Shown here piece after piece: positions 42,227-64,000 of a DNA stretch of 64,000 nucleotides. This DNA is from an uncultured delta proteobacterium (GTDB lineage: Bacteria > Desulfobacterota > Binatia > UBA9968): the NCBI GenBank assembly GCA_963755715.1, contig CAVWLW010000067.1, forward strand, positions 1 to 64,000, given 5' to 3'. Each line of letters opens with the position of its first letter. Position 1 is the stretch's first letter. The position numbers and the translations under genes were made by a program. The notes under the pieces are model-generated. The model did not search any database. It had not been told where the DNA came from and worked only from the letters and a program-made list of their open reading frames with translations.

Positions 42227-42523
42227 TTGAGTGAGCAGGACTTACCCGAGGGCGATGAGCAGGTAATCCGAGGAATCCTCCAATATTTGATCGAGCATCC
42301 CGACGCGAAGGATACGGGAGAAGGGATAGCTAAATGGTGGCTGGCAGGCACCGATGCTGAGTCGAAAAAAAAACAGGTTCAGAATGCGCTTGATTGTTTA
42401 ACCGCAAGAGGATGGCTAACAAAACGTGAAACATCCCGAAGGGAAAAAATTTACGGCCTTAACCGTAATCTATTACCGGAGATCAGGGGGTTCTTGAGAA
42501 TACAGGGAACGTTGGCGCACTGA
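42227..42523 (+). CDS. Small winged-helix-like protein heading the eCIS operon
   Basis: ILQYLIEHPDAKDTGEGIAKWWL...VQNALDCLTARGWL...IYGLN pattern; TTG start after AGAAGGA RBS, downstream of the sigma54 promoter. Confidence 0.7.
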   Translation: MSEQDLPEGDEQVIRGILQYLIEHPDAKDTGEGIAKWWLAGTDAESKKKQVQNALDCLTARGWLTKRETSRREKIYGLNRNLLPEIRGFLRIQGTLAH

Positions 42524-42592
42524 AACTCATCGCGTGAAAGCAACTGTGACAGGCGTGGTAAAACATTTAGCCTTATGGAGTGAGGAAGACCT

Positions 42593-43201
42593 TTGTACAC
42601 AGCGTTGCGGGCAACGAGCCGAACTTTATCGAAATTTCTCGAGACCAGCTTTCTAGCCGACCCATTGTTGAGCGGGTTCTTCGGCGGCGGCATGGTGGTG
42701 TCGCTCGCCACGCCCCAGGAGATGAACGAGAAGCCCGCGGAAGGATTGTCCGTCTGGCTCTATCGAATTATCCGCGACGAACAGCGTCTCAACGATCCTG
42801 CGGTTCGAATCAGCGCCACAGAACTGCGACCGCCGCCGCTGCCCGTCCGGCTCCACTACCTGATGACGCCGGTGACGAATGAGCAGACCGGCGATCCCGA
42901 AACCGAGCAGCTTATGCTCGGCAAGGTGCTGCAAGCGTTTTATAGCCACTCCGTGCTGCGCGGCGCGGACCTTCAGGCCGAGTTCTCGGGAACGGAGGTG
43001 GAACTCAAAGTTCGTCTCGAACCTTTGACACTCGAAGAGATCACACGCGTCTGGGAAGCTCTCGACGGCTCCTATCAGCTGTCGGTCTCCTATGAAGTCA
43101 GTGTTGTAAATATCATGCCCGAGGCGGAACCGGAGCGCGTCACTCCCGTGCAGATCGCGATGCCGGAATACGGACTGATCGTGCCCGCCGGGCCGACGTG
43201 A
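42593..43201 (+). CDS. DUF4255 / Pvc16(Afp16)-like tail terminator-cap protein
   Basis: LSVWLYRI, PPLPVRLHYLMT, LGKVLQAF, SVSYEVSVV. Confidence 0.88.
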   Translation: MYTALRATSRTLSKFLETSFLADPLLSGFFGGGMVVSLATPQEMNEKPAEGLSVWLYRIIRDEQRLNDPAVRISATELRPPPLPVRLHYLMTPVTNEQTGDPETEQLMLGKVLQAFYSHSVLRGADLQAEFSGTEVELKVRLEPLTLEEITRVWEALDGSYQLSVSYEVSVVNIMPEAEPERVTPVQIAMPEYGLIVPAGPT

Positions 43202-43215
43202 CAGGAGATTGATCG

Positions 43216-44391
43216 ATGCCGCGTCGCACTATTCAGCTCGATAACAGAACTATCGTGTTCTCACCTGATGATCCCGTACTCCCTGTGGATCGGTTTCAGG
43301 CCGTCATTAAAGTTCGGGTCACGGACGAGTTGACCGGTGCCGCGCCGAATAGTCGAACGACGCTCGAGGTCAAAGAGCGGGGATTTTTTCCGCGCCTGGG
43401 AAGCGATGGCCTGGGTGGATTGGTCGGCCTGCCGCGCCAGGTGTTTCCGGCACTGCAGGCCCGCGACTATCCCGTTCACCTGACGATTGACGCGGCAAGA
43501 TACGAGCGCCGCGATCATAAGAAGGATGTTCCTCAGGATCTCAGCTTCCCCACCACATTTACGCCTGCGGAGGTCGATATCGCACTGCACCGCCAACCGG
43601 TCTTCATTGCCGGGCGAACCGCGCGCTTGATCAACAATGCCAGCGCGCCGTTACCGGGCGCGCAGATCACCGTGACGGGCATATGGCGAATGCCGCCGTC
43701 GGCCAATGTCTCGATCCCTCCCGATCCGCCCAATATCGTTTCGCTGGTGCCGCCTCTGTATGCCGATCGCGCGGCCTTGACGCAGTCCCTGGCGCCGCGG
43801 GATTTGACGCCGGTCATCGGCGCCGACAAGGCGCTCGTTGATGATATTGCCGCTTCCGCCAAGGCGATTCGCATCTCCGACCGGTTGGGGTTGGCGCCGG
43901 GAAACATTTTGCTGATCGATGCCGACGAACCCGATCGGGCGGAATTCATTGCGATTGAAAACCTGACGACAACCGCGCCGGCGGATCAGCCCGCGGCCGT
44001 GACCCTGAATTACCCGGTGATTTTTTCGCATCGGCGAGGCGTGGTCGTGCGCCAGGCGAGCGCGCAGGCGCCGGGAGCGAGCGAGACTCTCAGCGTCGAG
44101 GCCTGGGCCGGTGATGCCTGTGTATATCTTAACGCCCTGGGCGGTTTGACCGGCGCGCAGGAAGTCGAAATTACCGGCGGACCAGGGCCGGATGAGTATC
44201 ATAGAGTGACGATTTTTTCCGTCACCAGCGACGCCGACGGATACTATCGCCTGCCGCCGCTCAGCCGCGTGGCGCAACTGGAGATTCACGCGGAGAAAGT
44301 GGTGGGAGCGCAGACATTTCAGGCGACGACGATTTTTCGTCCCGACTATCAGCAGCGCGACAACCGCCTGGATTTCATGCTGGCCGCTTAG
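43216..44391 (+). CDS. eCIS accessory protein: carboxypeptidase-regulatory-like beta domains with inserted sheath-like repeat domains
   Basis: VRVTDELTGA, PLPGAQITV, VTSDADGYYRL; insert ending LNYPVIFSHRRGVVV. Confidence 0.6.
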   Translation: MPRRTIQLDNRTIVFSPDDPVLPVDRFQAVIKVRVTDELTGAAPNSRTTLEVKERGFFPRLGSDGLGGLVGLPRQVFPALQARDYPVHLTIDAARYERRDHKKDVPQDLSFPTTFTPAEVDIALHRQPVFIAGRTARLINNASAPLPGAQITVTGIWRMPPSANVSIPPDPPNIVSLVPPLYADRAALTQSLAPRDLTPVIGADKALVDDIAASAKAIRISDRLGLAPGNILLIDADEPDRAEFIAIENLTTTAPADQPAAVTLNYPVIFSHRRGVVVRQASAQAPGASETLSVEAWAGDACVYLNALGGLTGAQEVEITGGPGPDEYHRVTIFSVTSDADGYYRLPPLSRVAQLEIHAEKVVGAQTFQATTIFRPDYQQRDNRLDFMLAA

Positions 44392-44460: not shown

Positions 44461-47400
44461 ATGCCTGAATATCTAGCCCCAGCAGTCTATGTCGAAGAAA
44501 TCGACAGCGGCAATAAGCCGATTGAAGGCGTGAGCACGAGCACGGCGGGAATGATCGGCGTCACCGAGCGCGGGCCTGCCAACGTGCCGATTCTCGTGAC
44601 CAGCTACGGCGAATACGTGCGCTGGTTCGGCGAGCGGCTGAATCGCGCCGATTTTGGCGATCACTGCTATCTGCCGCACGCCGTCGAAGGGTTTTTCACC
44701 AATGGCGGCAAGCGCGTTTTTATCACTCGAGTGGAGGCAAGCGGCGCGGCCCGGGCAACTTTCGAGCTGCACGATCGCGGCGACGCCAACTCGGCCTCCA
44801 CCGTGCTGCTGCGCACCGCTCCTGCCGGCACGGGAACCGCCGGAAATACGCCGATCTATGTTCTGACTATCAATACACCGCTCGCGAGCGCCCTGGCGAA
44901 CGGAGATCAAATCCGGCTCGGCGATGATAGCGACGCGGAATATCGGGTCATTGCGACGATTGAGCCGTCCGCCAGCACGACTCACGTGCCGCTGAGTTTG
45001 CCGCTGAGCCGCGCCCATGGCAGCGGCGTGACGGTCCATCAGATCAACCGCGTCGCCATCGCTTTCCCATCGACGGCCACGGCCCTGGCTATCGCCGAAG
45101 ATTCGCTCGCCGGCGACAATGCCGTCGTTGTCAGCGGCGACGCCGGTGATGTTGCCACTCTGGGCGCCAACCAACTGCTGGAAATCGGCGATCCGTTCTT
45201 CAACGAGCATCGATTTATCCGGACTGCGACGATCGACCCGGCGGACAACACGCGCGTCAGGGTGACGCTTGACGGCCCGCTCGGCCTGGACCATGCGGCC
45301 GCGGCCAATGCGGCGCGCCGGCTCGATATCGATCTTACCAACGTCGCCGTGCCGGTGGATGACGATACTCTCAGCGTTGCCGCCCTGGCGAACGATCGCG
45401 TCGCCTACGTCACCGATCGGAACAGCAACTTCGATGACCGCACCAGTGTGATCATTTTTGATATCAATACCGTGGCTGCCCGTGAAGCGCGGCGCATCGG
45501 CACGCTCTCGATGCTGACCCTGGCGACCGGGGTCTATGCCGCTAGTCCGGCGGGATCCGTCGTCGAACGCGTGGACCTGGGCGACGACGGCGCGGTAACC
45601 GTCAAGACCCTGACGGCCGGCGCGCGCGCCGGAACGGCGGTCATCGCTCTCGATAACCGCGTTGGACTCGTAGTGAACGGGATTCTGCGCATCGGCGCCG
45701 CGCCAGACGATGAATATCTGACGATTGCGGCATTGCCGAATCCCTCGCCCGGCAACGCGGCGCCCAACGCGGGCAATGTCGTGCTGGCTCATGCGCTCAA
45801 CCGCGATCATCCGCTTGGAACTCGTGCTTGGCTGGAAACGGATCCGGTCGGTCAACCCGGCGAGGCCCGCCACTGCGTTATTGATCGATGCCGATATTGG
45901 CGGCGCTTCGCTGCCGGTGACCGACGGAACCGGTTACGCTCAGGATGAATTCGTCAGGCTGACGCCCGCCGGTGGAGGCCAACCGCTATACCATCGGCTG
46001 GCGGCCAATGCCGTGAGTCTCGATGCGCGACTGGTGGACTTGACCGTGCCATTATCCCGCGCGCATGCCGCCGGAGCCGCGGTGGCGGAACGCGCGCCGC
46101 TGCTCAACTTGCAGGCGCTCGATACCGGCGATTGGGGCAACCGTTTGCGCGTTTCAGTGCAGGATGAGCCGGCGGGAATGGTGCCGCGGACCACTGTGAG
46201 CAGCGTCATCGATGCCGCCCACATTCGTCTGGCATCCGCGGCCGGCGTCGAAGCGGGAACGATTCTCGAAGTTTTCAATCCGGCGGACGGCGCGGTGGTC
46301 GGCGATCTGTTGAAAGTGACGGACGTCAATCGCGCCGCCAACTTTACGATTACGCTTGACGGCGCCGGCATTTCCATCGCCCAATCGGCGCCCGGCCTGG
46401 CGGTCCGGTCAAGAGAATTTCGTCTCACGGTCTATTTATTCCGTCAACCGGATCCGGCGATCCCTTCGCGCAACGAAACGATCCTCGACAGCGAAGTGTT
46501 TCGCTATCTCTCGATGGACCCGCGCCACAGCCGCTACGTGCAGGACATCATCGGCGACATCAACGGCGCGCTCCGGCTCTCCGACCGCCGTCCGGAAGGC
46601 GAATCAAGGTACATCCGCGTGAGCGATATGAATCCAAGCACGGACATCCGTCTCGGTCCTGAAACTCTGGTGGATGTCTTGCCGGATGGCCGCCGGCGTC
46701 CGGCGCGCCATGCTCTGGGGACCTGGTGCGCGGGACCGATTCCATCGGCACACTCACTGAAGACGATTATGTCGGTCAGGATAGTCAGGACCCGGAGGCG
46801 CGCACCGGACTCCACAGCCTGCGCAACATCGAAGAGATCAGCATCGTCGCCTGTCCGGGACGCACGACCGCGGCGATGCAGAGCGCGCTGATCGACCACT
46901 GCGAGCTGATGCGCTACCGCTTCGCCGTGCTCGACGGCCCGCGGCCGCCGCAGCGACACGCTCGCCGACGTGCAGGCGCAGCGCCAGCAGTTCGACACGA
47001 AATACGCGGCGCTCTATCACCCGTGGCTGCTGATTCCCGATCCGTTCCCGGCGAACCTGAGCCAGATCGCCGACTATCCGATTCCGCCGTCGCGGCCACA
47101 TGGTCGGCATCTACGCGCGCACCGACATCGAGCGCGGCGTGCACAAGGCGCCGGCCAACGAGGTCGTGCGCGGCATCATCGGGCTGCAGCGCATGCTCAA
47201 CAAGGAGCAGCACGACATCCTCAATCCCGTATCCGGTCAACATCAACGTGATCCGCGACTTCCGCGACAACAACCGCGGCATCCGCGTCTACGGCGGCCG
47301 GGTCATCACCAGCGATCCGGACTGGAAGTACGTCAACGTCCGGCGGCTGCTGATCTTCATCGAGGCGTCGATCGATCGCGGGCTGCAGTGGGTGGTCTTC

Positions 47401-47655
47401 GAGCCCAACGCCGAGCCGCTGTGGGCGCGCGTGCGCCGGTCGATCGCCAACTTCCTGACGCTGGTCTGGCGCAACGGCGCGCTGGAAGGCACCAAGGTCG
47501 AGGAGGCGTTCTTCGTCAAGTGCGACCGCACGACGATGACGCAGACGGACATCGACAACGGCCGGCTGATCTGCGTGGTCGGCGTCGCGCCGGTGAAGCC
47601 GGCCGAGTTCGTGATCGTCCGCATCGGCCTGTGGACCGCGCACGCGGACGACTGA
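44461..47655 (+). CDS. Tail sheath protein 1 (~1060 aa, with large insertion), several frameshifts
   Basis: MPEYLAPAVYVEE, AVEGFFTNGG, YAALYHPW, GVHKAPAN, WKYVNVRRL, WVVFEPN, GVAPVKPAEF. Confidence 0.92.
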
Positions 47656-47679: not shown

Positions 47680-48123
47680 ATGGCCACCGGAGAACGGCGC
47701 GATCCGTTTCGCGCATTCAACTTTCAGCTCGAAATCGACGGCATCGCCGCGCGGCGCGTTCAGCGAAGTGCAGCGGCCTGACCGCGGAAGGCGACGCGGT
47801 GGATTACCGCGAAGGCACCGACCTGCAGCCCAACGTGCGCAAGCTCGTCGGCCTGCGCAAGTACACCAACATCACGCTCAAGCGCGGCTACACGCAGGAC
47901 GAACTCGCTGTGGGACTGGTACAGCAACATTCACAACGGCGTCGCCGACCGGCGCAACGTCACCATCATCCTGATGAACGAGGAGCGCCAGCCGGTGATG
48001 CGCTGGCACGCCGAGAACGCCTGGATCAACAAGATCGAAGGGCCGAGCTTCAAGGCGAGCGGCAACGAAGTCGCCATCGAATCGGTCGAGCTGGTCCACG
48101 AAGGGCTGACCATCGAAGTGTGA
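47680..48123 (+). CDS. Tail tube protein (Afp1/gp19-like), frameshifted, missed by the ORF track
   Basis: RBS AAGGAGG; MATGERRDPFRAFNFQLEIDG...YREG...KYTNITLKRG...NEVAIESVELVHEGL across frames. Confidence 0.88.
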
Positions 48124-48141: not shown

Positions 48142-50145
48142 GTGCAATCGCCGCAAACACCGGGCGTCTATTACGAGCGAGTCGACGCGAGCGCGCCGGC
48201 CATCGCGCTGCTGCGCACCGACATCGCCGGCTTCGTCGGCATCGCCACGCGCGGGTCCGCTGCACCAGCCGCTGCCCGTGCAGTCGTGGCGGCAGTTTCA
48301 GGCCTATTTCGGTGATTTTACCGGTGCCGGTTATCTCGCTTACGCCGTGCGGGCGTTCTTCGAAAACGGCGGCCAGCGGTGCTGGATCGTGCGTGTGGCG
48401 TCTGAAACCGCGGCGACGGCCGCGGTAGCGCTGCGGTCGGAAAGTCTCGCCAGCGTCTGGGCGGTTTCAGCCTCGAGTCCCGGAGTGTGGGGAAACGATC
48501 TGGATATCGTGATCAGGGAAACGCACCGAGCGCAGACGTTGACCGTTCCCGCAACAGAGCGCGCCGGAATTTTCCACCGTGCTCTCGACCACCGGATTCG
48601 GCCGCGCCACGCAGGTGCGCCTCTCGCAGGGCGCCGATCATCGTCCACAAGGTCGTGTCGGATGTCGATGCGGTGAATCATCGGCTGCTGTGGATCAATC
48701 CGAAAGCGGCGAAGCGCAGCTGCCCTATGACAGCGCGTTGAGCGGTTTCGATGCCGGGCGTCCGATCCTGATTGAAAGCATCGAATACACGCTGTGGGTG
48801 AGAGAGCTCGGCCGGCTGATTCGCGTCTACGAAGGGCTCTCGCTCGTTCCCGAGCACCGGCGTTACGGCCCGGCTATTTTGGCAGCGTTTAAAGTCCCGC
48901 GGGTTTCCGGCCAACCGCTGAACCTGCCCTCCGCGCCTGAGCCGGTGACGATCACCGAATTGCGCGAGCTGCCTCTGTCCGTTCTCGAGTCGATGGCCAC
49001 GACGCCGGATCAGATCATGCCGCTCACGGGCGGCGCCGACGGCCTGGCTCAGTTGAGCCCCTATGATTTCATCGGCGAGGAGTATCGATCCGCTCGACAG
49101 CGATGACGTCCGCGCGCGCAAAGCGCGCGGCCTGCGAACCCTGGAAGACGTGCGCGAAGTCGCGATGGTCGCCGTGCCGGATATCCACATTCAGCCGAAA
49201 GCCGCGCCGCGTTTCAGCCCGCCGCCGCCCTGCGTCCCCGATCCGTGTCTGCCGGTGAGCGTGCCGCCGGCGGTCCCGCGCGCGCCGTCGGTGGGCGACC
49301 TGCCGCCGGTCTTTCCGGAAAGCGCCATCTATCAGGTGCAGTCCGCGTTGATTCAACACTGCGAGAAGCTGCGCGATCGCATCGCGCTTCTGGAGCCGCC
49401 GTTCAGCGCGTCGCGCGACGACAAGCTCGGCGTCGGCGCGGTGCGCGCCTGGCGGAGCCGCTTCGATTCCAAGTACGCGGCTTTGTACTATCCGTGGCTG
49501 CGCGTGGTCGATCCGTTGCGCTCGCCCATGTCACTGGTGCGGGAGATTCCGCCCAGCGGCCACGTGGCCGGACAATACGCGCAAAACGATTCTCAATTCG
49601 GCGTGCACAAGGCGCCGGCCAACGCGCCGCTCATCTGGGCCGAGGATGTAACCGTCTTCGTCGACGACGCCGTGCACGGGATCTTCAATCCCGGCGGCAT
49701 CAACGCGATCCGGCCATTGCCGGGCCGCGGCCTGCGCATCTTCGGCGCGCGCACGGTGAGCAGCGACGCCGATTGGCGTTACGTCAACGTGCGCCGGCTG
49801 ATGATGATGATCGAAAAAGCGATCGAGGCGGCGATCCAATGGGCGGTCTTCGAGCCGAATTCCACTCTGACGCGGACCAAGCTCAATTTGACGTTAACGA
49901 ATTTCTTGCTGTCGTTATGGCAGCGGGGAGCGCTCATGGGAGCGGCCGCGGAGGATGCCTTTTTCGTCAAATGCGACGACGATAACAACCCGCCCGAGGA
50001 GCGTGACCAGGGCAGGCTCGTGGCCACGATCGGCGTCGCGCCTTCGCGCCCGTTCGAATTCATTATTCTGAGAGTCGGGCGGGCGCACAATCAGTTCGAG
50101 ATCAGCGAAGCGTCGTCCGGCGCTTCCGGGCTGGAGGTCTTCTAG
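48142..50145 (+). CDS. Tail sheath protein 2, several frameshifts
   Basis: QTPGVYYERVD, AVRAFFENGG, SPGVWGN, YAALYYPW, GVHKAPAN, WRYVNVRRL, GVAPSRPFEF. Confidence 0.9.
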
Positions 50146-52941: not shown

Positions 52942-52951
52942 GCCGGATTCA

Positions 52952-56521: not shown

Positions 56522-56526
56522 ATGCC

Positions 56527-58761
56527 ATGATGACTCTCGAACAATTGCCGCCGATTCCACGCCCGCCAAACGATCCGACGTCGTGGCTCCTCAACTGGCG
56601 CGTCGGTTGGCGTGCCGCCGAACTGCAACACCTGTCCGCGGAGCGATCGCTGGTGCTGGCTCCGGCGCCGGACACACAGCGTTCGCTGACAGAACCAAGC
56701 GGCAGCTTTGGCGGACTCAAGCCGCCGGGTAACGTCGCGTTAGGCCCCGACGGCAGTATCTATCTGCTCGATGCGGCCACCGCGCAGTTGAAACGCTTCG
56801 ATCCCTGCGAATGCCGCTTCCAGCCGGTTCCCTGTCTGGGCGGCAGCGGCAGCGGGCCGCGGCAGTTGAAAAATCCCCATGGCGTCGCGATCTGCGCCGG
56901 CAATCTGTTTGTGTGCGATACCGGCAATCATCGCTTGAGCGTGTTTGCTTTGCATGGATTCGTGCTGCGGGGATTCTGGCAGCCGCCGCCCGCCGCTTAC
57001 AAAGGACCCAGTCCACATCTGGCAAATCCATGGGAACCGTTCGATCTCACTTTCGACCGGTTCGGGCGAGCGTACGTTACCGATGGGGCGAACGGCTGTA
57101 TTCATCGTTTCACTCCGGCGGGGCAGTGGCAAAAATGTTTCCCGGGTTTCGGACCAGCGACCTGGATCGCCACGGACTGCCGCGACCGTACTTACGTCGT
57201 TGTCGCCGGCACGCCTGCAACCGTTGTGAAAGTCGATGGTGACGGCAACGGCGTCGAGACCGGGCCGGCGGAGCCGGTGCCGGCATTTCCGGGTATGCCT
57301 TTTTCAGTGGATGCCGACGGCTTGCTCCATCTCGGCCCGTTATGCGCCGCCGTTTCGGCAACGAATTGTATAGGCGCGCAACCGGCGCCAAAGTGCCCGC
57401 CCGGTCAAAGCCCGGAGCGCGGTGTTTTCGACCGGCGCGGCAATCCGGTGGACTGTTTTGTCAGCAAGCCCGCGAGCTACGTGACCCAGGCGACCTATGT
57501 CAGCGCCGCGCTCGACAGCGAGCTCTATCGATGCCAATGGCACCGCATCATTTTGCGCGGCGAGATCCCCGCCGGCGCCCGCGTGGTGGTTTCAAGCTAC
57601 ACGGCGGAAGCGGAGTTGGCCGACGACGACATCCAGAATCTGGGCGACGTCTGGCAAACCAACCAGACGGCGACTGAAATGGTCGGCGGCGAGTGGGACT
57701 GCCTGGTGCGCAGCGGCGGCGGCCGTTTTCTCTGGCTGCGACTCGAATTTCGCGGCAACGGCAAGGTGACGCCCCGCCTCGACAGCATCGAGATCGAATT
57801 TCCGCGCATTAGTTTGCGGCGCTACCTGCCGGCGGTGTTCGGCAAAGAAGCCGTCAGCGCCGACTTCACGGATCGTTTTCTGAGCCTCTTCGATACCACT
57901 TTTCGCTCCATTGAAACCAAACTGGATCGTGAAGCGCGGTATTTCGATCCGCTTTCGGCGCCCGCGGAACGCGACCCGAAAACCGGCGCGGATTTTCTCT
58001 CCTGGCTGGCATCGTGGATTGGTCTCATTCTCGACCGGCACTGGCCCGAGGCCAAACGCAGAAAGTTTTTCAAGCACGCCGGGCGCTTGTATGCACTGCG
58101 CGGCACGCGCCGGGGCTTGTGGCGCGAGCTGCTGCTGTTTCTCGACATGGACGGCGACCTGTGTTGCCGGACCGACCAGCCGCCTGATCGTTGCCAGCCG
58201 CGGCCCGCGAACTGCGCGCCGCCGAAACCGGCCGCATGCGGGTGGTGTCCGCCGCCGCTGATTCTCGAGCACTTCAAGTTGCGCCGCTGGCTCTTTCTCG
58301 GCGCCGGCCGCCTCGGCGATCAGGCGGTGCTGTGGGGCAAACGGATCGTCAACCGCAGCCAGCTGGACGATACCGCCCGGGCGGATCGCACCCGATTGCT
58401 GACGGCGCAGGATCCGCTGCGCGACCCGTTTCATGTGTATGCTTACAAATTCAGCGTCTTTGTTCCGGCGTCTTTCCGCGCATCGGATACCGACCGCAAG
58501 GCGCTGGAAAATATTCTACGCAACGGCCGGCCGGCGGGGACCCTGGCGCAGCTCGAATACGTCGAGCCGCGCTTTCGCATCGGCTTTCAATCGATGATCG
58601 GTTTTGACAGCGTCGTCGGCCGTTATCCGGTCGGGGTAACTTTGAACGATATGCAGCTCGGCCGCGCCACGGTGTTGACGGCGCCGCCGCACAAACAGGG
58701 CGGACCGTCTCTGGCAATCGGCGAACAGTCACGCATCGGCACGACAACGCGATTGGAATAG
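56527..58761 (+). CDS. Baseplate/tail protein I-like (Afp12/gp7-like) with N-terminal NHL beta-propeller
   Basis: NHL repeats (QLKNPHGVAI...LFVCDTGNHRL); YLPAVF...FTDRFLSLF, FLSWLASWIG, RGTRRGL, RPAGT. Confidence 0.8.
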   Translation: MMTLEQLPPIPRPPNDPTSWLLNWRVGWRAAELQHLSAERSLVLAPAPDTQRSLTEPSGSFGGLKPPGNVALGPDGSIYLLDAATAQLKRFDPCECRFQPVPCLGGSGSGPRQLKNPHGVAICAGNLFVCDTGNHRLSVFALHGFVLRGFWQPPPAAYKGPSPHLANPWEPFDLTFDRFGRAYVTDGANGCIHRFTPAGQWQKCFPGFGPATWIATDCRDRTYVVVAGTPATVVKVDGDGNGVETGPAEPVPAFPGMPFSVDADGLLHLGPLCAAVSATNCIGAQPAPKCPPGQSPERGVFDRRGNPVDCFVSKPASYVTQATYVSAALDSELYRCQWHRIILRGEIPAGARVVVSSYTAEAELADDDIQNLGDVWQTNQTATEMVGGEWDCLVRSGGGRFLWLRLEFRGNGKVTPRLDSIEIEFPRISLRRYLPAVFGKEAVSADFTDRFLSLFDTTFRSIETKLDREARYFDPLSAPAERDPKTGADFLSWLASWIGLILDRHWPEAKRRKFFKHAGRLYALRGTRRGLWRELLLFLDMDGDLCCRTDQPPDRCQPRPANCAPPKPAACGWCPPPLILEHFKLRRWLFLGAGRLGDQAVLWGKRIVNRSQLDDTARADRTRLLTAQDPLRDPFHVYAYKFSVFVPASFRASDTDRKALENILRNGRPAGTLAQLEYVEPRFRIGFQSMIGFDSVVGRYPVGVTLNDMQLGRATVLTAPPHKQGGPSLAIGEQSRIGTTTRLE

Positions 58762-58808: not shown

Positions 58809-61322
58809 ATGGTTCATTCACACAATGGTAATGTCCACCAGCTTGCTTGCCCGGCCTGCGACTACGGGCCATTCACGCGCAACAATTATTTCACCGGCAA
58901 GCTCCTGGTCGAGCGGGATTTCACCGATGAAACCCGTTTCCACATGGAAAAGCTGCGCCACCACGAGCAGCTGCTGCACGGCTCGGGCGTGGTCTGCGGT
59001 CTGAAAGTCAAGCCGCATCCGAACGAAGCCTGCCGCGACCGCTTTGTCTGCGTGGAGCCCGGATCGGCGGTCGATTGCTGCGGCCATGACATCATCGTCG
59101 CCGAAGAAGAGTGCGTCGACATTACGCGCTTTGCGGAAATCAAAGCGCTGCAGAGCAACAACGACAAGGACTCGCATAGGTTGCAGATCTGCGTGCGCTT
59201 TCGCGAATGCCCGACTGAAGATATTCCGGTGCTCTACGACGATTGCGGCTGTGACGATACCAAGTGCGCGCCCAATCGTATTCTCGAGTCTTACGAAATC
59301 GGCGTCATGATCGATCCGCCGGACCAGCCGGACTCCTTGCACACGCCGAAATTTAGCTGGGAGAACTCCATCGCCGTGGCCCACGCGGCTGCGGCTGTGC
59401 TGCACGATGCGTCGCATCGACTGTATGTTCTGACCGCGGACGATCCCGCCACCGTCTATCAGATCAGTAGCGATAATCACGCGACGATCACCTCGCGGAC
59501 CTTGCCGGCGAAGGTTCTTGCGCAGGCGGTTTCGAATGACGGCAAGCATCTCTACGTCGTCGTCGAGCCCACCACGCCGGCGACGCTGCGCCAGCTGCAC
59601 GTGCTCGATACGACCCAGCCGGGCATGCCCGACTTTAATACGAATCCGCTCGACCTGCCCAATAGTACGGGCAGCGCCGTGGCGTTGGCCGTCGCGCCGA
59701 ACGCGCGGTTGCTCGCGCTGGTGGCATCCAGCGGCGATGTTCTGCGCTGGCCTGCCGACCTCGACACGAACCCAGCTCCGGCTGCTCCGGACATCGTCAA
59801 GAATCTCGGCGCGGGCGTGGCCGGATTGACGCTGAGCAGCGACGGCAAGCTGGCTTTCGTGCTCGGACCGGGAAATCAGATTCAGGCGCTCGATCTGGCC
59901 GCCGCCACGGTGACTCCCATAACCGTGCTGCCTGCCGCGGCGAAGCCTTCGTCCATGGCGCTGGTCAGCAGCACCGCGCCGGACATGCTCGCCGTGGCCG
60001 ATCAAACCAATATGTTTGTTCACCTCGTTCAGCTGCCGCCGTCGGCGACGTTGATAGGCAGCGTCAAACTCGATCATCCGCCGGTCGGGCTCGTCGCCGC
60101 TGCAGGAGGACACTGGGCCTACATCCTCGAAAGGGATACCGACAGCTTTATTCAATCGGTCAGCCTTGATGCGCTGGTGCAGCATCTCGCGGCGACACCG
60201 GGTGCAGCGTTCAAGATCGGCGACGACAGCCGGCAGATCGTCATGACCGCATCGGGCAAGCGTCTCTACATTCCGTACGTCGATGATATCGCCCAGCCTG
60301 CCGCCGGCGGCGTCGCGATCGTGGAAGTTACCGAAGGATCATGCGCGGAAATTCTCTGGCGTCATCTCGACGGCTGCCCGCATTGCGACCTGCCGGATTG
60401 CGTGGTGCTGGCGACCATTGAGAACTATCACCTCGGTGATCGTATTGAAGAACAAACCGATCCGCCCGCCGATCCGGCACAGGATGCCCAAGACAAAATC
60501 GCCCGCATCGACAATCGCAAGGGAAGACGGCTGCTGCCGAGCACGGAAGTTTTGACCGAGCTGGTGGAGTGTCTGCTCGAACACGGGGTCGGCGGAGCCG
60601 GGACTCAGGGTCTTCCCGGCACGCCGGGCGCGAAGGGTGACAAAGGCGACAAGGGCGACAAAGGAGACAGCGTCACCGGGCCAGCCGGCGCCAAGGGAGA
60701 TCCGGGGCCGGGGTTAGAGGAAGGGCTCACGAGAATCGAAGCGTTGAGCTGGACTCACAACATCGAACAGGTGGCCGCGCCGGGCACGGTAAATTCCTTC
60801 GCCGTGGAAGTGACGATGGTAACCGGCGCGAAGATTCCCGGACTGGTTATCGGCTTCACCGCCGACGTTCAGGTCAGCAAGTTTATCGATGCCGATCATG
60901 TGTTCCAGGTTCTCGTCGATCACACCAACGCGGAGGATGCGCGGCGCGGTTTGGCCTGCCGCTGCGCGATTCGCGGCCGCACGATTCCGGTGAAGCTGAA
61001 GCTCGACGGGCAAGGCAAAATCGTCGTGAATGCCGCCGGCCATATCGATACCGCTTCGGAGTTGCCGGCCGGCGACGCGCGCGGCGTCGCTTTTCTGCTG
61101 GATAACGAAAATTTCCCGATCGCCGGCGAAATTCTCAACGGCAAGGTCAATGACCTGTGGATCCTCCTGCGCGGCGATTTCGTGCTCGACAGCAAGGGCA
61201 AGGCCGTCGATGCCGAATTCGCCCGCGCAGAGTTGCCGACCGGCGATCACCCCAATGGCAGCGTGTTCGGGGTTCAAGGCGGACTGTTCGAAAGCTGGTT
61301 CACGGTCAAAGCGCAGGGCTAG
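58809..61322 (+). CDS. Tail-fibre-like protein: fibre-attachment N-domain, beta-propeller, collagen-like repeat
   Basis: RNNYFTGKLLVERDFTDE...LHGSGVVCGL; propeller-like repeats; GTQGLPGTPGAKGDKGDKGDKGD. Confidence 0.7.
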   Translation: MVHSHNGNVHQLACPACDYGPFTRNNYFTGKLLVERDFTDETRFHMEKLRHHEQLLHGSGVVCGLKVKPHPNEACRDRFVCVEPGSAVDCCGHDIIVAEEECVDITRFAEIKALQSNNDKDSHRLQICVRFRECPTEDIPVLYDDCGCDDTKCAPNRILESYEIGVMIDPPDQPDSLHTPKFSWENSIAVAHAAAAVLHDASHRLYVLTADDPATVYQISSDNHATITSRTLPAKVLAQAVSNDGKHLYVVVEPTTPATLRQLHVLDTTQPGMPDFNTNPLDLPNSTGSAVALAVAPNARLLALVASSGDVLRWPADLDTNPAPAAPDIVKNLGAGVAGLTLSSDGKLAFVLGPGNQIQALDLAAATVTPITVLPAAAKPSSMALVSSTAPDMLAVADQTNMFVHLVQLPPSATLIGSVKLDHPPVGLVAAAGGHWAYILERDTDSFIQSVSLDALVQHLAATPGAAFKIGDDSRQIVMTASGKRLYIPYVDDIAQPAAGGVAIVEVTEGSCAEILWRHLDGCPHCDLPDCVVLATIENYHLGDRIEEQTDPPADPAQDAQDKIARIDNRKGRRLLPSTEVLTELVECLLEHGVGGAGTQGLPGTPGAKGDKGDKGDKGDSVTGPAGAKGDPGPGLEEGLTRIEALSWTHNIEQVAAPGTVNSFAVEVTMVTGAKIPGLVIGFTADVQVSKFIDADHVFQVLVDHTNAEDARRGLACRCAIRGRTIPVKLKLDGQGKIVVNAAGHIDTASELPAGDARGVAFLLDNENFPIAGEILNGKVNDLWILLRGDFVLDSKGKAVDAEFARAELPTGDHPNGSVFGVQGGLFESWFTVKAQG

Positions 61323-61393
61323 CGCCGGGAACTCAACGGCAAGACGTTTAGGAAGAGAATGGATTTCAGCGCACACAAGACTAGGAGTAAACC

Positions 61394-63091
61394 ATGGCAC
61401 AAACTTTAATGACGGCGCCGGCAACTTCACGAATGAAAACATTGCAGCCGGTTTGCCCGGCTTGCGGAGGACTCGAATGCTTGTGCCGGCCGCGATTCTT
61501 CGCCGGCCAACTGTTGACCGAAGAGGATCTCAACCGCCTCGATCACTACATCGTCGAGAAAAACAAACTGCACAACCGCTACCTGCACGGTTGGGGCGTC
61601 GTCTGCGGCCTGGAAGTTTTTTGCCATCCCTGCGAAGGGCAGGTCACCGTCACGTCCGGCTATGCTCTGAGCCCGTGCGGCGATGACATCGTTTTGTGCG
61701 CCGACGATGTCGTCAACGTGTGCGATCTTATCCAGCGCTGCCGCGAGCGGGAGCGGCTGGATTGCGAACCGCCGCGCCCCGCCGCAAGCGCGGAATGCCA
61801 GGATGTCACGGAACAGTGGGTGTTGACGGTTTGCTTCACGGAAAAGGCCTCGCGCGGCGTGACGGCGTTGCGCGGCAGCAGCGAGGCTGCGTGCTGCTCG
61901 AGCTGCAGTTGCGGCGGCTCCGCCAGTTGCGGCTGCGGCTGTCAGGAAAGCGGCATCAGCCGAAAGCAGCCGGCTCCGCCGGCTCGGTCTGCGCGTTCGC
62001 TTTCGACCGATGCACGATCCGGCCGTGACCTCTGCGAGCCGACGGTCACCTGCGAAAGCCACTATTTCTCGCTCTACAAAGCATCGGCTGCCGATCCGAA
62101 ACCGGGAGAGGCGCTCGGCGCGATGATTCAGCGCTTCGAGGCCTGTATGAAAGGTTTGTTCGATGCCGTGCCGCCGCTGCCGACGAGCATCGAGCAAGCG
62201 CAGGCATGGTGCTGTCAGCTGAAGCAGAACTTCATCGACTTCTTAACCGATCACCCGATCCACGACTGCCTCGCCTTGCAGAAACTTGCGCAGTTCGTTT
62301 GTCCCGCGCCGAGTCAGAATCAGACGCCGGAACAATATTGGACCGCAGTGCTCACGCAGATAGCGCCGATTCTCGCCGAATATATTCGTTCGTGCGCGTG
62401 TTCGGCCCTGTTGCCTCCCTGCCCCGATCCGGCCGCCAGCAATTGCGTGCCGCTGGCAACGATTACGATTCGCAAGCGCGACTGCAAAATCATGCGGGTG
62501 TGCAACTGGAGCGTGCGCAAGTTCGTGACCACCTTTCCCAATCTGCAGTATTGGCTCTCCTTCCTGCCGTTCGTGCGCAGCCTGCGGCAGGCCATCGAGA
62601 TCGGTTGCTGCCGGCCGTTTCCGTCGCTTGGCAGCGCCGGCCTCTCGGCGGGAACGCGATCGGATAGACGCTTTACCGCTTTCAGGAGAGCGGCGACGGC
62701 AATCAATCCAGAGCAGGAATTTTCCCGAGTGCTGTTGGACGCAATCGGGAATCGCGACCGCACGATCGACGCGCAAACGCTCTTTCTCGGCGCGATGGAG
62801 TTTCAGGATGACAAAAATCGGCCGCTGATGACCGACGCCGAGCTGCGCAATCCGCTGCAGTTTTTACTCATCAATCAGCTCGCGCCGCCGCTGGTGAGAA
62901 ATGCCGTCCCCGACGAAGACGCCGAGCCATTGCAGACGCTGTTGGCGACGATCTCGCGCGTCCTGGGTTCGTCACAAGCCCCCACCGGCGAAGCGCAGAC
63001 GCTCACCAGCCAGGTCGAGGAGCTAAAGCGCATGGTCGAGGATCAGCAGGCTCGCATCAGCGAGTTGCAGCAGCGCTTAGGCAACCGGTAA
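61394..63091 (+). CDS. Cys-rich fibre-domain paralog with C-terminal coiled coil
   Basis: RPRFFAGQLLTEEDL...LHGWGVVCGL; CCSSCSCGGSASCGCGC; terminal VEELKRMVEDQQARISELQQRL. Confidence 0.65.
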   Translation: MAQTLMTAPATSRMKTLQPVCPACGGLECLCRPRFFAGQLLTEEDLNRLDHYIVEKNKLHNRYLHGWGVVCGLEVFCHPCEGQVTVTSGYALSPCGDDIVLCADDVVNVCDLIQRCRERERLDCEPPRPAASAECQDVTEQWVLTVCFTEKASRGVTALRGSSEAACCSSCSCGGSASCGCGCQESGISRKQPAPPARSARSLSTDARSGRDLCEPTVTCESHYFSLYKASAADPKPGEALGAMIQRFEACMKGLFDAVPPLPTSIEQAQAWCCQLKQNFIDFLTDHPIHDCLALQKLAQFVCPAPSQNQTPEQYWTAVLTQIAPILAEYIRSCACSALLPPCPDPAASNCVPLATITIRKRDCKIMRVCNWSVRKFVTTFPNLQYWLSFLPFVRSLRQAIEIGCCRPFPSLGSAGLSAGTRSDRRFTAFRRAATAINPEQEFSRVLLDAIGNRDRTIDAQTLFLGAMEFQDDKNRPLMTDAELRNPLQFLLINQLAPPLVRNAVPDEDAEPLQTLLATISRVLGSSQAPTGEAQTLTSQVEELKRMVEDQQARISELQQRLGNR

Positions 63092-63104
63092 ACGGAGGAT
63101 CACC

Positions 63105-64000
63105 ATGGCGGCGAACCAGACGCAGCGGCCGAAATTTTTTGAAGAGCAATACCTCGGCGCCGCCGATCTTACCGCGGTGGTCGATTACGGGCGCATCCAG
63201 CAGGCGCGCCACGCACTGGGCGCGCACACCTGGGGCATCGCCATCGGCTTGACGTTGAAAGAGACGCCCCAGGCCGGCGGCGCGGTGACCGTGCATGTGT
63301 TGCCGGGCTATGCCTGGGACGGATACGGCCGCCCGATCGTCGTGCTCTCGCCCTATCAGATTCCCGAGGAGAGGTTCAGTGCAATCAAGTTCGATCCGAG
63401 CATCGATACGGACGGCAAGGGACGCTTGATTCCGGTGTGGCTCTGCTATGACGAAACCGCAACCCAGAGCCCGCGGCCCGGCTTCGAAGTGTGCGATGTG
63501 GCCGATCAACTGTCACGCATTCAGGAAAGTTTCCGTATCGAAATCGGCGATCAGCCTGCGCCGGCGGATCGCTACTCGGGAGTGAATGTTGCGGCCAAAA
63601 ATATTATCGATGCCGCGACCGCGTTACAGGCGTTCGATCCGGCTGCCCCGCTGGTGCGCGACGAGTCGATTGCGCAGCAGAATTTTCCCGATCCGCAAAA
63701 TCGCGCGCGCTGGTTGATACCGATCGGCTACGTGCGCTGGCTGCCGGTGCAGAATCAGGCCGGGCACTTCGTCGCGCGCGACGATAGCGGCGCGGGTGGG
63801 CTGCCCAAGGATTCGGATCAGATCCGCATCTTCCGCCGTTATGCCGGCGTGGTCGCCGAAGCCATCGAGGCGGCGGACGGCAGAATTCGTCTCAAGAACC
63901 GGGGCAACGGACTTCCAACCGTGCGCACGGATGAGCTGGTCTGGGTCGAAGGCGATCTGCGCATCGAAGGCGATCTGCGGCTTTTCAATCACAAGCTGGA
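63105..64000 (+). CDS. Third fibre-domain paralog (probable tail fibre), partial; absent from the ORF track
   Basis: RBS GGAGG; MAANQTQRPKFFEEQYLGAADL...HTWGIAIGL...PGYAWDGYGRPI; appears open to the window end. Confidence 0.75.
   Translation, partial: MAANQTQRPKFFEEQYLGAADLTAVVDYGRIQQARHALGAHTWGIAIGLTLKETPQAGGAVTVHVLPGYAWDGYGRPIVVLSPYQIPEERFSAIKFDPSIDTDGKGRLIPVWLCYDETATQSPRPGFEVCDVADQLSRIQESFRIEIGDQPAPADRYSGVNVAAKNIIDAATALQAFDPAAPLVRDESIAQQNFPDPQNRARWLIPIGYVRWLPVQNQAGHFVARDDSGAGGLPKDSDQIRIFRRYAGVVAEAIEAADGRIRLKNRGNGLPTVRTDELVWVEGDLRIEGDLRLFNHKL

What the first reader, a model, noticed from the sequence alone, without database searches (positions are those of the whole stretch)
42227..64000. 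Heavily decorated eCIS of an unusual architecture in a probable uncultured soil lineage
Seen: full tube/sheath/baseplate/spike set with split hub and spike, no head genes, and extra domains on many core parts (sheath repeats, Ala/Gly insert, NHL propeller, PAAR extension, three fibre paralogs). No Afp15 ATPase, tape measure, toxin or lysis gene is visible within the window. Known: eCIS (Afp, PVC, MAC, tCIS, Streptomyces CIS) are headless phage-tail machines. Inference: a structurally distinct subtype with unknown target; best candidate for the novel system here.
Basis: partly seen in the sequence, partly recalled or inferred. Interest (0 to 1): 0.82.

Follow-up and report, generated by a model that had tools for sequence, protein, structure and literature searches.

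The report
Complete soil-type contractile injection system
This is a real, complete headless phage-tail "syringe" gene cluster with a DNA/RNA-editing toxin as cargo, but it belongs to a widespread, already catalogued (though never purified) family, and its oddly split genes are most likely sequencing errors.

Summary
The eCIS is real and complete. It runs from 42227 past the window end to about 73.7 kb of the same contig. The tape measure, Afp15-type ATPase and a roughly 1000-aa cargo with an AID/APOBEC-like deaminase domain lie just downstream. No head genes lie in the 45 kb beyond.

The architecture is not unusual for its lineage. The same gene order occurs in 17 of 22 related loci from many phyla, including cultured Dyella. 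It also matches the Lysobacter dokdonensis operon listed in eCIStem. A split hub and spike is a published trait of lineage II subtypes. The closest solved structures are the Streptomyces and haloarchaeal CIS.

Real lineage traits:
- a giant (about 1070 aa) first sheath with tandem beta-domain inserts
- an NHL-Cis12 fusion
- three Cis13 paralogs
- a sigma-54 activator and promoter upstream

The PAAR identity is unverified.

The fragmented sheath, tube, third Cis13, ATPase and cargo genes come from single-base indels. Relatives and near-identical soil contigs lack those tested, so assembly errors are the likely cause.

The scan had not noted this lineage before.

Verdict: new member of a known kind, moderate interest.

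The parts
38461..40020 (-). GAF-domain sigma-54 activator (bEBP), divergent neighbour; possibly part of the regulatory input
   Evidence: Pfam GAF + Sigma54_activat + HTH_8. No conservation in relatives was shown.
40390..40404 (+). Perfect -24/-12 sigma-54 promoter consensus, about 95 nt before the bEBP gene
   Evidence: Only exact match to TGGCAC-N5-TTGC in the window. Not found upstream of the bEBP gene in 5 relatives.
40500..41963 (+). Dedicated sigma-54 enhancer-binding protein (487 aa)
   Evidence: Pfam Sigma54_activat E 4e-63. A homolog lies upstream on the same strand in 7 of 8 loci examined.
42168..42182 (+). -24/-12-like element (TGG-N8-TTGC) before the first gene of the operon
   Evidence: A comparable element sits in the same intergenic space in 7 of 8 loci. 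The genome-wide chance rate is 0.11 per 600 nt.
42227..42523 (+). First gene, 98-aa protein of unknown function
   Evidence: ORF. tblastn homologs at the same place in G001 (50%), G008 (39%) and weakly in G006 and G007. No family hit.
42593..43201 (+). Afp16/Cis16 tube-sheath terminator (cap)
   Evidence: Pfam Pvc16_N E 1e-37.
43216..44391 (+). 391-aa conserved protein; shares a beta-domain repeat with the first sheath's insert
   Evidence: Conserved in relatives. The G001 ortholog matches the sheath insert by blastp, E 3.6e-5. Weak CarboxypepD_reg hit.
44461..47655 (+). Giant first sheath paralog (1072 aa in intact relatives): sheath core plus about 550 aa of tandem all-beta insert. Broken here by single-base indels.
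   Evidence: tblastn frames 1>2>1>2>3>1. Indels at about 45850, 46720, 46953, 47091, 47225. Pfam Phage_sheath_1 and 1C in the intact ortholog. AF2 model pLDDT 79; Foldseek top hits 9ezm and 9gts/9gtp.
47680..48123 (+). Inner tube protein 1 (147 aa in relatives), with indels in this assembly
   Evidence: tblastn. Pfam gp19 E 3e-44 in the G001 ortholog. Indels at 47746/47768 and 47768, 47902-4, 48122.
48142..50145 (+). Second sheath (666 aa in relatives), broken by single-base insertions
   Evidence: Frames 1>2>3>1. Insertions at about 48253, 48636, 48709, 49082. PDB best hits 8bky/8bl4, E 5e-71.
50145..50663 (+). Inner tube protein 2 (172 aa)
   Evidence: Pfam Phage_T4_gp19 E 5e-33. PDB hits to tCIS, Streptomyces and AlgoCIS tubes.
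50684..50881 (+). Conserved 65-aa gene in the position of afp6
   Evidence: ORF. tblastn hits at the same place in 15 of 18 related loci, 41-95% identity. Same position and size as the afp6 or small ORFs in the eCIStem tables. Homology to Afp6 was not tested.
50886..51710 (+). Afp7/Cis7-like tube initiator with LysM; Ala/Gly-rich stretch at 51240-51335
   Evidence: Pfam CIS_tube E 2e-27 and LysM E 2e-7. Ala/Gly scan.
51721..52941 (+). gp27-like baseplate hub (N-terminal half of VgrG/Afp8)
   Evidence: PDB 9gtr_q residues 70-344, E 6e-9. Phage_GPD in the ortholog.
52877..53416 (+). gp5-like OB-fold spike (C-terminal half of Afp8)
   Evidence: Pfam Phage_base_V E 4e-27.
53430..54143 (+). Candidate spike-tip protein: Cys-rich N-domain, Pro-rich linker, Ig-like C-domain; sits in the PAAR slot
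   Evidence: Slot comparison and alignment A2. C-domain Ig-like, Z about 10, on a model of pLDDT 61. The slot is variable; true PAARs occupy it in L023 and L024.
54140..54553 (+). gp25/Afp9 baseplate wedge
   Evidence: Pfam GPW_gp25 E 5e-26. 95% identical to the G001 ortholog.
54557..56521 (+). Baseplate J / Afp11 / Cis11 (654 aa, single copy)
   Evidence: Pfam Baseplate_J. 9gtp_1K aligned over 7-648 of 654, E 1e-71. 1738 homologs with E <= 0.001 among the 7999 candidates scored.
56518..58761 (+). Cis12/Afp12-like wedge protein with an N-terminal NHL beta-propeller
   Evidence: Pfam NHL and Tail_P2_I. NCBIfam CIS12_fam E 4e-45 on residues 377-722. PDB NHL propellers and 9gtp_E.
58809..61322 (+). 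Cis13 paralog 1 (837 aa): Cis13 N-domain, propeller-like repeats, short collagen-like stretch
   Evidence: NCBIfam CIS13_fam E 7e-25 plus weak propeller and collagen hits. Weak PQQ_2 hit in the ortholog. No PDB sequence hit.
61394..63091 (+). Cis13 paralog 2 (565 aa)
   Evidence: CIS13_fam E 2e-9. 39% identical to paralog 1 over the first ~100 aa.
63105..64000 (+). Cis13 paralog 3. It runs on to about 65360 of the contig, is 734 aa in relatives with a C-terminal S74 chaperone domain, and is frameshifted here.
   Evidence: tblastn frames 3>1>2>3. Peptidase_S74 E 5e-17 in the L006 ortholog. CIS13_fam E 4e-7.

Best explanation
The locus is one complete lineage-II extracellular contractile injection system (eCIS). 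It spans about 31 kb, from 42227 to about 73727 of the contig, and belongs to a widespread, catalogued but experimentally untouched clade.

Proposed working:
1. A dedicated sigma-54 enhancer-binding protein switches on a -24/-12 promoter in front of the operon.
2. The baseplate assembles from a split hub (gp27-like) and spike (gp5-like), a tip protein, gp25, Cis11 and NHL-Cis12. Three Cis13 paralogs carry different distal domains and are the likely receptor binders.
3. The tape measure sets tube length, and two tube and two sheath paralogs polymerise on the baseplate. The first sheath carries about 550 aa of surface beta-domains. Afp16 caps the tail.
4. The AAA+ ATPase helps assembly or loading of a cargo of about 1000 aa. 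This cargo is a polymorphic toxin: a conserved carrier region with a C-terminal AID/APOBEC-like deaminase.
5. Particles are presumably released by cell lysis, bind a target cell, contract and deliver the deaminase.

Shown here: gene content, order, homologies, conservation, and the promoter and activator linkage. Inferred: assembly roles, extracellular release, the target, and deaminase activity.

The broken reading frames are most likely consensus errors of this assembly.
For: Core set:
- Cap, 2 sheaths, 2 tubes, Afp7-LysM, spike OB fold, gp25, J and P2_I by Pfam.
- CIS_TMP, WHD+AAA ATPase and the deaminase cargo directly downstream. The intact ATPase ortholog is 720 aa with WHD+AAA.
- Only one CIS locus in the genome: the 2 sheath hits are both here.
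- No head or terminase genes.

Lineage:
- Closest solved chains are Streptomyces CIS (IId) and Halogeometricum (IIa).
- Synteny holds in 17 of 22 loci.
- The gene order equals eCIStem operon 19455.
- Traits fit the published lineage-II descriptions.

Regulation:
- bEBP gene upstream in 7 of 8 loci, and a TGG-N8-YTGC element in 7 of 8, against 0.11 expected per 600 nt.
- rpoN is present in the genome.

Cargo:
- HAE...PCxxC motif in the translation.
- APOBEC_N scores 26.6 bits on the isolated domain against a cut-off of 25.
- 76 homologs share the carrier region but end in NucA/NucB, Endonuclease_NS_2, Ntox15, AHH or deaminase domains, and some carry DUF4157.
- A deaminase eCIS toxin (EAT11) is validated in Geller 2021 (passages read).

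Frameshifts are probably artefacts:
- All those inspected at base level are single-base insertions absent from both relatives.
- Soil contigs 96-99.5% identical lack the extra base at 45848, 47093, 47229, 47768, 48122, 48552 and 48636.
- Protein identity to G001 is as high in the broken genes as in the intact ones.
- rpoB and rpoC are intact.
Against: - No DUF4157/eCIS_core domain anywhere in this genome (0 matches; completeness 93.6%; the family rang in none of the 14 control genomes either). The close relative G001 has four.
- No lysis or release genes were seen in the cluster.
- The two nearest characterised systems are not extracellular: cytoplasmic in Streptomyces and membrane-bound in haloarchaea.
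- PAAR is unverified.
- The contigs that lack the extra bases are 0.5-4% divergent, so they are other strains. The frameshifts cluster in accessory genes, so real recent decay cannot be excluded.
- APOBEC_N is below the cut-off on the whole ORF (24.2 bits) and in ortholog P0125 (23.1 bits).
- No formal dbeCIS/eCIStem classification or phylogeny was run.
Confidence: 0.82

Rival explanations
1. The machine is not extracellular. It works inside or at the membrane of the producer, like the cytoplasmic Streptomyces CIS (stress-induced cell death) or the haloarchaeal T6SS-like CIS.
For: The closest solved homologs are exactly these two systems. Casu 2023 and Zachs 2024 describe them as cytoplasmic and membrane-bound (passages read). 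No lysis cassette lies in the locus.
Against: - Unlike CIS-Sc, this locus has a tape measure and three Cis13 proteins with fibre-type features. One carries the S74 intramolecular chaperone typical of tail fibres and spikes.
- A hydrophobicity scan of 26 proteins of the intact G001 cluster found no transmembrane protein that could play CisA or Hbor_38620. The one segment it scored is the Ala/Gly-rich stretch of the Afp7-like protein.
- Casu 2023 lists the absence of fibre and tape measure as a feature of CIS-Sc.
Confidence: 0.13
2. The locus is a recently decaying pseudogene cluster. The frameshifts are real mutations, so this strain makes no particles.
For: About 12 strain-specific frameshifting indels lie in 45.8-49.1 kb. 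More lie in the third Cis13, the ATPase and the cargo. Housekeeping rpoB and rpoC are intact, so the errors are not genome-wide. The neighbouring NRPS, also an accessory locus, is likewise fragmented.
Against: - Nearly all are single-base insertions: 11 insertions (one of 2 nt) and one single-base deletion in 45.8-49.1 kb.
- No drop in amino-acid identity to G001 within the broken genes.
- Near-identical soil contigs lack them.
- The tight clustering, with 13 kb of clean sequence next door, looks like a locally unpolished consensus.
Confidence: 0.15
3. It is the tail module of a defective prophage or an R-type tailocin, not an eCIS.
For: The sheath, tube and baseplate folds are shared with myophage tails.
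Against: eCIS-specific parts are present: Pvc16_N cap, CIS_tube, CIS_TMP, WHD+AAA Afp15-type ATPase, Cis12 and Cis13 family hits, DUF4157 cargo genes in the sister locus, and a toxin at the 3' end. No capsid, portal, terminase, integrase or lysis genes lie within the 109-kb contig regions scanned.
Confidence: 0.02

Closest known systems
eCIStem operon 19455 of Lysobacter dokdonensis DS-58 (Geller et al. 2021, Nat Commun; supplementary gene table read). It is the same locus as L027.
   Same: Same order: afp16, unknown, sheath, tube, sheath, tube, small ORF, afp7, afp8 (GPD), afp8 (spike), tip/PAAR slot, gp25, single Baseplate_J (653 aa), Tail_P2_I protein, several unassigned genes, AAA ATPase, large 3' gene.
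   Different: J is only 35% identical. Both Lysobacter sheaths are of ordinary size (538 and 512 aa), against about 1070 and 666 aa here. It has a canonical 129-aa PAAR. It is catalogued only, with no experiments.
Streptomyces coelicolor / S. venezuelae CIS (CIS-Sc; dbeCIS subtype IId; PDB 8bky, 8bl4, 9gtp, 9gts; Casu et al. 2023, PMC10066040)
   Same: Best sequence matches for the second sheath (E 5e-71), Cis11 (full length, E 1e-71), a tube, the VgrG N-half and the Cis12 core. It also has two tube paralogs.
   Different: CIS-Sc has one sheath, a contiguous VgrG, no fibre, no typical tape measure, and works in the cytoplasm with membrane protein CisA (abstract). Here the locus has a split hub and spike, two sheaths, three Cis13 proteins, a tape measure and no membrane protein.
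Halogeometricum borinquense CIS (clade IIa; PDB 9ezm; Zachs et al. 2024, PMC11566945)
   Same: Best match for the giant first sheath (E 2e-107; Foldseek E 2e-25). It has Cis12 and Cis13 baseplate periphery proteins.
   Different: Two cis11 genes, a membrane-bound T6SS-like mode, an archaeal host and a partner membrane protein. Here there is a single cis11 and no such partner.
Afp / PVC (lineage I eCIS; PDB 6rao, 6j0n)
   Same: The same parts list (Afp1-16 equivalents), several sheath paralogs, a 3' toxin and an Afp15-type ATPase.
   Different: Much more distant (sheath E 1e-34 to 1e-48). Afp16 is encoded at the 5' end here. Afp8 is contiguous in lineage I. Regulators differ.

Membership tests
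eCIS superfamily (Afp/PVC-like headless contractile injection systems) | Sheath, inner tube, gp25, Baseplate_J and VgrG-type spike genes in one cluster | tested here: met
   Pfam hits; PDB hits.
eCIS superfamily | Afp16/DUF4255 (Pvc16_N) terminator and Afp15-type AAA+ ATPase | tested here: met
   Pvc16_N E 1e-37. WHD and AAA fragments at L002:7601-9541. tblastn to the intact 720-aa G001 ATPase spans 67380-69535 in several frames.
eCIS superfamily | No capsid, portal or terminase genes linked | tested here: met
   Pfam scans of 27 upstream ORFs, 20 ORFs at 63-80 kb and 26 ORFs at 79-109 kb. The only HK97-like hit is an encapsulin (Linocin_M18). The contig is not a closed genome.
eCIS superfamily | DUF4157/eCIS_core marker domain in or beside the cargo genes | tested here: inconclusive
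   0 matches in the own genome, but the family rang in none of the 14 control genomes either. Four DUF4157 genes follow the ATPase in sister genome G001. Distant homologs of the own cargo's carrier region carry it.
dbeCIS lineage II, subtype IIb (Chen et al. 2019) | afp8 split into gp27 and gp5 ORFs (IIa, IIb, IIc) | tested here: met
   Rule taken from passages of PMC6899500.
dbeCIS lineage II, subtype IIb | Single afp11 copy (IIb and IId, against two in IIa and IIc) | tested here: met
   One Baseplate_J hit in the cluster.
dbeCIS lineage II, subtype IIb | afp10 (PAAR) absent; afp6 present; divergent afp12 and afp13 present | tested here: inconclusive
   No PAAR family hit for the slot protein. 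A 65-aa gene lies in the afp6 position, but homology to Afp6 was not tested. Cis12 and Cis13 homologs are present. Relatives L023 and L024 do carry PAAR.
dbeCIS lineage II, subtype IIb | Placement in the Afp11 tree / dbeCIS HMM classification | not tested
   No reference set was on hand. The supplementary figures of PMC6899500 were unreadable glyph code.
Streptomyces-type cytoplasmic CIS (IId) | Contiguous VgrG; no fibre; no typical tape measure | tested here: not met
   Split hub and spike. Three Cis13 paralogs. CIS_TMP hit. Features taken from Casu 2023 and Chen 2019 passages.
AID/APOBEC-like deaminase superfamily (cargo C-domain) | H[AC]E ... PCxxC zinc-binding motif | tested here: met
   HAE and PCDDCC are present in the translation. 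That this motif defines the family is recalled knowledge.
AID/APOBEC-like deaminase superfamily (cargo C-domain) | Pfam APOBEC_N at or above the gathering score | tested here: inconclusive
   26.6 bits on the isolated 270-aa domain (cut-off 25). 24.2 bits on the 739-aa ORF. 23.1 bits in P0125 and 27.8 bits in P0146.
AID/APOBEC-like deaminase superfamily (cargo C-domain) | Deaminase activity and substrate | not testable with these tools
   Needs an enzyme or toxicity assay.
Sigma-54-dependent operon | -24 GG / -12 GC promoter, cognate bEBP, and rpoN in the genome | tested here: met
   Element at 42168-42182 (2 mismatches to the consensus) and better copies in relatives. bEBP. rpoN. Transcription itself was not tested.

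The most novel reading that the evidence does not exclude
This clade may be a structurally distinct, still undescribed eCIS type and one of the commonest in soils. Its traits are a giant first sheath with five or six surface beta-domains, a second sheath, a free protein (orf391) sharing the same repeat, NHL-Cis12, three Cis13 proteins with different binding domains, and a sigma-54 switch. On this reading the two sheath proteins would build a mosaic or decorated sheath, and the three Cis13 proteins would give multi-receptor targeting. The carrier-domain toxins without DUF4157 would use a loading route different from the one proposed for DUF4157 cargo.
Probability: 0.3. Interest if true: 0.55.

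Novelty: new member of a known kind. Interest (0 to 1): 0.35.

Why it matters
All well-studied eCIS come from a narrow part of the tree. This locus belongs to a lineage-II clade that is very common in soil and rhizosphere bacteria:
- 1738 baseplate-J homologs with E <= 0.001 among the 7999 candidates scored, the 120 listed being 62-100% identical.
- Partial holders among runs of 17 sequencing studies.

No particle from this clade has been purified in anything my searches found.

Its value is as a pointer. Cultured carriers such as Dyella tabacisoli and D. flagellata offer a route to the first structure of a two-sheath, heavily decorated eCIS. The modular carrier-toxin family, including AID/APOBEC-like deaminases, is a pool of deliverable enzymes.

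As a single locus it is an ordinary member, and this copy is a poor template because of its frameshifts.

Tried and rejected
- Programmed frameshifting or another genetic code as the cause of the split genes. Rejected: a dozen or more sites without a common motif, and relatives have plain open frames.
- Genome-wide sequencing error. Rejected: rpoB and rpoC are intact, so the errors are regional.
- Formal dbeCIS subtype look-up through the supplements of PMC6899500. Table S1 only lists the genomes screened. The figure PDF is glyph-coded and unreadable.
- Dyella japonica operon 7711 in eCIStem as a match. Rejected: it has a different architecture, with one sheath, a fused afp8 and a 1224-aa afp11.
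- PAAR identity of the slot protein. Pfam at E<=1, NCBIfam, PDB phmmer at E<=10 and hhalign against two true PAARs all gave nothing. The AF2 model is weak (pLDDT 61), so the N-domain stays open.
- Foldseek on the whole giant sheath found only sheath cores. The fold family of the insert domains was not determined.
The protein atlas did not complete, or does not hold the sequences.
- Literature search for eCIS together with sigma-54. None of the 12 listed papers held the eCIS term, and the main text of Geller 2021 has no sigma-54 mention. Its supplementary Pfam table does list Sigma54_activat 49 times in eCIS operons, so the link is not new.
- Earlier notes of this scan: nothing on this lineage.
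- Laid contigs cover the stretch only in pieces. Parts without cover say nothing.

Full report
WHAT IS THERE

The window is the first 64 kb of a 109,420-bp contig, C67, of a 7.4-Mb, 76-contig genome. From 42227 onward every gene is on the + strand. Pfam names the following:
- a Pvc16_N cap at 42593-43201
- two sheath genes and two gp19-type tube genes
- a CIS_tube+LysM protein at 50886-51710
- a Phage_base_V spike at 52877-53416
- gp25
- Baseplate_J at 54557-56521
- a Tail_P2_I protein with NHL repeats

The 406-aa product of 51721-52941 gave no Pfam hit itself. It matches residues 70-344 of the Streptomyces VgrG chain 9gtr_q, and its intact ortholog hits Phage_GPD. It is therefore the gp27-like hub, separate from the gp5-like spike.

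The contig continues beyond the window. In order it holds:
- the rest of the third 'fibre' gene
- a CIS_TMP tape measure at 65357-67366
- a WHD+AAA Afp15-type ATPase at about 67380-69540
- a few small ORFs
- a cargo gene at about 70852-73727
- an IS200-like fragment

The cluster is thus complete and about 31 kb long. No capsid, portal or terminase was found in 27 upstream ORFs, in the 20 ORFs of 63-80 kb, or in 26 ORFs of 79-109 kb. An encapsulin is the only HK97-like hit. The genome holds no second CIS locus: both Phage_sheath_1C matches lie here.

BROKEN FRAMES

Stop-to-stop frames with coding-type GC3 switch repeatedly in 44.4-50.1 kb, 63.1-65.4 kb, 67.4-69.5 kb and near 71.4 kb.

Two collinear relatives, L005 and L006, are 81-86% identical in DNA. 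They carry clean ORFs of 1072 (giant sheath), 147, 666, 174, 281, 404, 198, 239, 137, 654, 768, 836, 570 and 734 aa.

tblastn of those proteins on this contig gave these frame paths:
- giant sheath: 1>2>1>2>3>1
- second sheath: 1>2>3>1
- third Cis13: 3>1>2>3
- ATPase: several switches

At base level the shifts are single inserted bases absent from both relatives. A count of indels shared against both relatives gives about 11 insertions and 1 deletion between 45.8 and 49.1 kb. It gives none inside coding sequence from 49.1 to 62 kb.

Contigs of four soil and rhizosphere runs, 96-99.5% identical where laid, lack the extra base at 45848, 47093, 47229, 47768, 48122, 48552 and 48636.

Amino-acid identity to G001 is as high in the broken genes (67-96% by segment) as in the intact ones (75-95%). 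rpoB and rpoC are intact.

I read this as a locally unpolished consensus, with probability about 0.8. Real recent decay is the rival, because the laid contigs are other strains and the damage sits in accessory genes. The NRPS at 22.8-38 kb is fragmented in the same way.

THE DECORATIONS, ONE BY ONE

1. First sheath.
   - In intact form it is 1072 aa.
   - Its ends align with the 574-aa Halogeometricum sheath (9ezm, E 2e-107) and with the Streptomyces sheath.
   - About 550 aa in between are all-beta tandem domains, with a recurring V.L..PL...H..G..V ending.
   - The AlphaFold model is confident there (mean pLDDT 79). Foldseek recognises only the sheath core.
   - At least 26 representatives of 50%-identity clusters align end to end, so the giant form is common.
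2. The 391-aa gene between cap and sheath. Its G001 ortholog shares this repeat with the sheath insert (blastp E 3.6e-5).
3. Ala/Gly stretch. It lies at 51240-51335, in the Afp7-like protein.
4. NHL.
   - The N-terminal NHL repeats of the 747-aa protein match solved NHL propellers over residues 44-217.
   - Residues 377-722 hit NCBIfam CIS12_fam (E 4e-45).
   - Residues 433-541 match the 190-aa Streptomyces baseplate chain 9gtp_E.
5. 'Three fibre paralogs'.
   - Only the first 100-170 aa are related. That part hits NCBIfam CIS13_fam in all three (E 7e-25, 2e-9, 4e-7, below the equivalog cut-off).
   - The remainders differ. Paralog 1 has propeller-like repeats and a short collagen-like stretch.
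   - Paralog 2 has a different remainder with no family hit.
   - Paralog 3 has an S74 intramolecular chaperone domain in the ortholog.
6. 'PAAR extension'.
   - The 237-aa protein sits in the slot between spike and gp25, where relatives L023 and L024 have true PAAR proteins.
   - It has no family hit, and hhalign gave probability 0.2.
   - Its C-terminal half is Ig-like (Z about 10, rmsd 2.4 over 94 residues) on a weak model (pLDDT 61).
   - The slot is variable. Other relatives hold an unrelated hydrophobic protein of about 240 aa.
7. A conserved 65-aa gene at 50684-50881 was overlooked. It is found at the same place in 15 of 18 loci.

HOW COMMON, AND WHERE IT BELONGS

- The J protein has 1738 homologs with E <= 0.001 among the 7999 candidates scored. 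The 120 listed are 62-100% identical over nearly the full length, with source names from Acidobacteria, Deltaproteobacteria, Methylococcales, Armatimonadota and Anaerolineales.
- In the species-representative genomes, 27 loci were confirmed out of 54 pattern matches.
- Of 22 of those loci compared with the intact G001 protein set, 17 show first sheath, tube, second sheath and tube upstream of the baseplate genes. Three are cut by a contig end, and two are distant.
- The loci include the cultured Dyella tabacisoli and D. flagellata.
- The own genome's RpoC is 94% and 92% identical to those of G001 and G002. These three are therefore one uncultured lineage. Their record labels disagree (Verrucomicrobiia against Binatia).

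Published context:
- Chen et al. [quoted passage not shown] By these traits the locus fits IIb best. This is an inference, not a classification.
- Streptomyces CIS is IId (Casu 2023, passages). Halogeometricum is IIa (Zachs 2024, passages).
- The eCIStem gene table (Geller 2021, supplement file 12) lists the Lysobacter dokdonensis DS-58 operon with the same gene order but ordinary sheath sizes. That operon is my locus L027.
- The Dyella japonica operon in the same table is a different type.
- The same paper's Pfam table lists Sigma54_activat 49 times, NHL 3 times and APOBEC_N once in eCIS operons.

The architecture and each decoration therefore have precedent in catalogues. My searches found no experimental work on this clade.

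REGULATION

- A 487-aa sigma-54 activator gene ends 264 nt before the first gene.
- A homolog lies upstream on the same strand in 7 of 8 loci examined: own, G001, G002, G006, G007, G008 and G010, but not G009.
- A TGG-N8-YTGC element lies between the activator and the operon in 7 of the 8. Examples are TGGTATTCCAATTGC here, TGGCATTCCATTTGC in G001, and TGGCACGTCATTTGC and TGGCACGCCATTTGC in Rhodanobacter and Dyella. Chance expectation is 0.11 per 600 nt.
- rpoN is present in the genome.
- A perfect consensus at 40390 precedes the activator gene here only.

CARGO

- The 739-aa ORF and the 276-aa ORF before it are one gene, split by a frameshift. A 1015-aa natural ortholog, P0125, is 91% identical over all of the 739-aa ORF.
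- The last ~170 aa carry HAE and PCxxC. They match APOBEC_N, SNAD4 and NAD1, and APOBEC_N reaches its cut-off only on the isolated domain.
- The preceding ~430 aa recur in 76 proteins of up to 1294 aa. These end in NucA/NucB, Endonuclease_NS_2, Ntox15, AHH or deaminase domains, and some start with DUF4157. It is a polymorphic toxin family.
- The own genome has no DUF4157 match (with the caveat that no control genome rang). G001 has four DUF4157 genes in the same position.
- G+C falls from about 0.6 to 0.5 across the cargo, which fits cassette exchange.

MODE OF ACTION

I favour the extracellular mode. The reasons are the tape measure, the fibre-type Cis13 proteins and the absence of any membrane protein in the cluster. 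However, the two nearest characterised systems are cytoplasmic and membrane-bound, and no release genes were seen. That rival keeps about 0.13.

VERDICT

The claim of an unusual, distinct subtype is not supported. This is a new member of a catalogued, uncharacterised lineage-II clade, and this copy is marred by probable assembly errors.

Noticed in passing
window 22872-38062 (+): Large NRPS cluster: condensation, AMP-binding and PP-binding modules, a TubC_N docking domain and a terminal alpha/beta hydrolase. Its first modules are cut into overlapping ORFs in successive frames (22872, 23339, 23961, 24691, 25427). This is the same kind of frameshifting as in the eCIS.
   Followed up: partly
window 1-5000: G+C is 0.41-0.47 here against 0.55-0.60 in the rest of the window. 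The stretch holds a response-regulator/pyridine-nucleotide-disulphide-oxidoreductase fusion (50-1768) and a zinc alcohol dehydrogenase (3297-4262). It could be foreign DNA or a chimeric join.
   Followed up: no
window 15937-22853 (+): CbbQ/NorQ-type AAA (15937-17028) with a VWA partner (17117-19321). It is followed by a zinc-ribbon, adenylate-cyclase, AAA_16 and TPR protein (19454-22853), which is STAND-like.
   Followed up: no
L002:13879-14770 (contig 73879-74770): IS200/Y1-transposase fragment followed by a DnaA_C-type HTH ORF in another frame, directly after the cargo gene.
   Followed up: no
L002:18688-19536 and L003:4374-6461: An encapsulin (Linocin_M18) gene lies 5 kb after the cluster. 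A third sigma-54 activator, with two GAF domains, lies at contig 82374-84461.
   Followed up: no
L012-L019, L021, slot about 8840-9590 of each locus: In many relatives the slot between spike and gp25 holds an unrelated protein of 229-246 aa with 1-3 hydrophobic helices, in place of the Cys-rich/Ig-like protein. No family hit was found for the two members scanned, L012 and L019.
   Followed up: partly
L005 / L006 (genomes G002 / G001): Record titles call these MAGs 'Candidatus Binatia' and 'Verrucomicrobiia'. Yet their RpoC is 92% and 94% identical to that of this genome. At least one label must be wrong.
   Followed up: partly
L034:3358-11347 (-), genome G001: The sister locus carries four DUF4157/eCIS_core cargo genes, two of them with PG_binding_1, where this genome has a single deaminase cargo. 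This is a cargo cassette swap between close relatives.
   Followed up: partly
L002:11508-13727 (cargo carrier region): Two strongly hydrophobic 19-aa segments lie in the conserved carrier part of the toxin, at residues 233-251 and 286-304 of the 739-aa ORF. They may be membrane-active helices.
   Followed up: no
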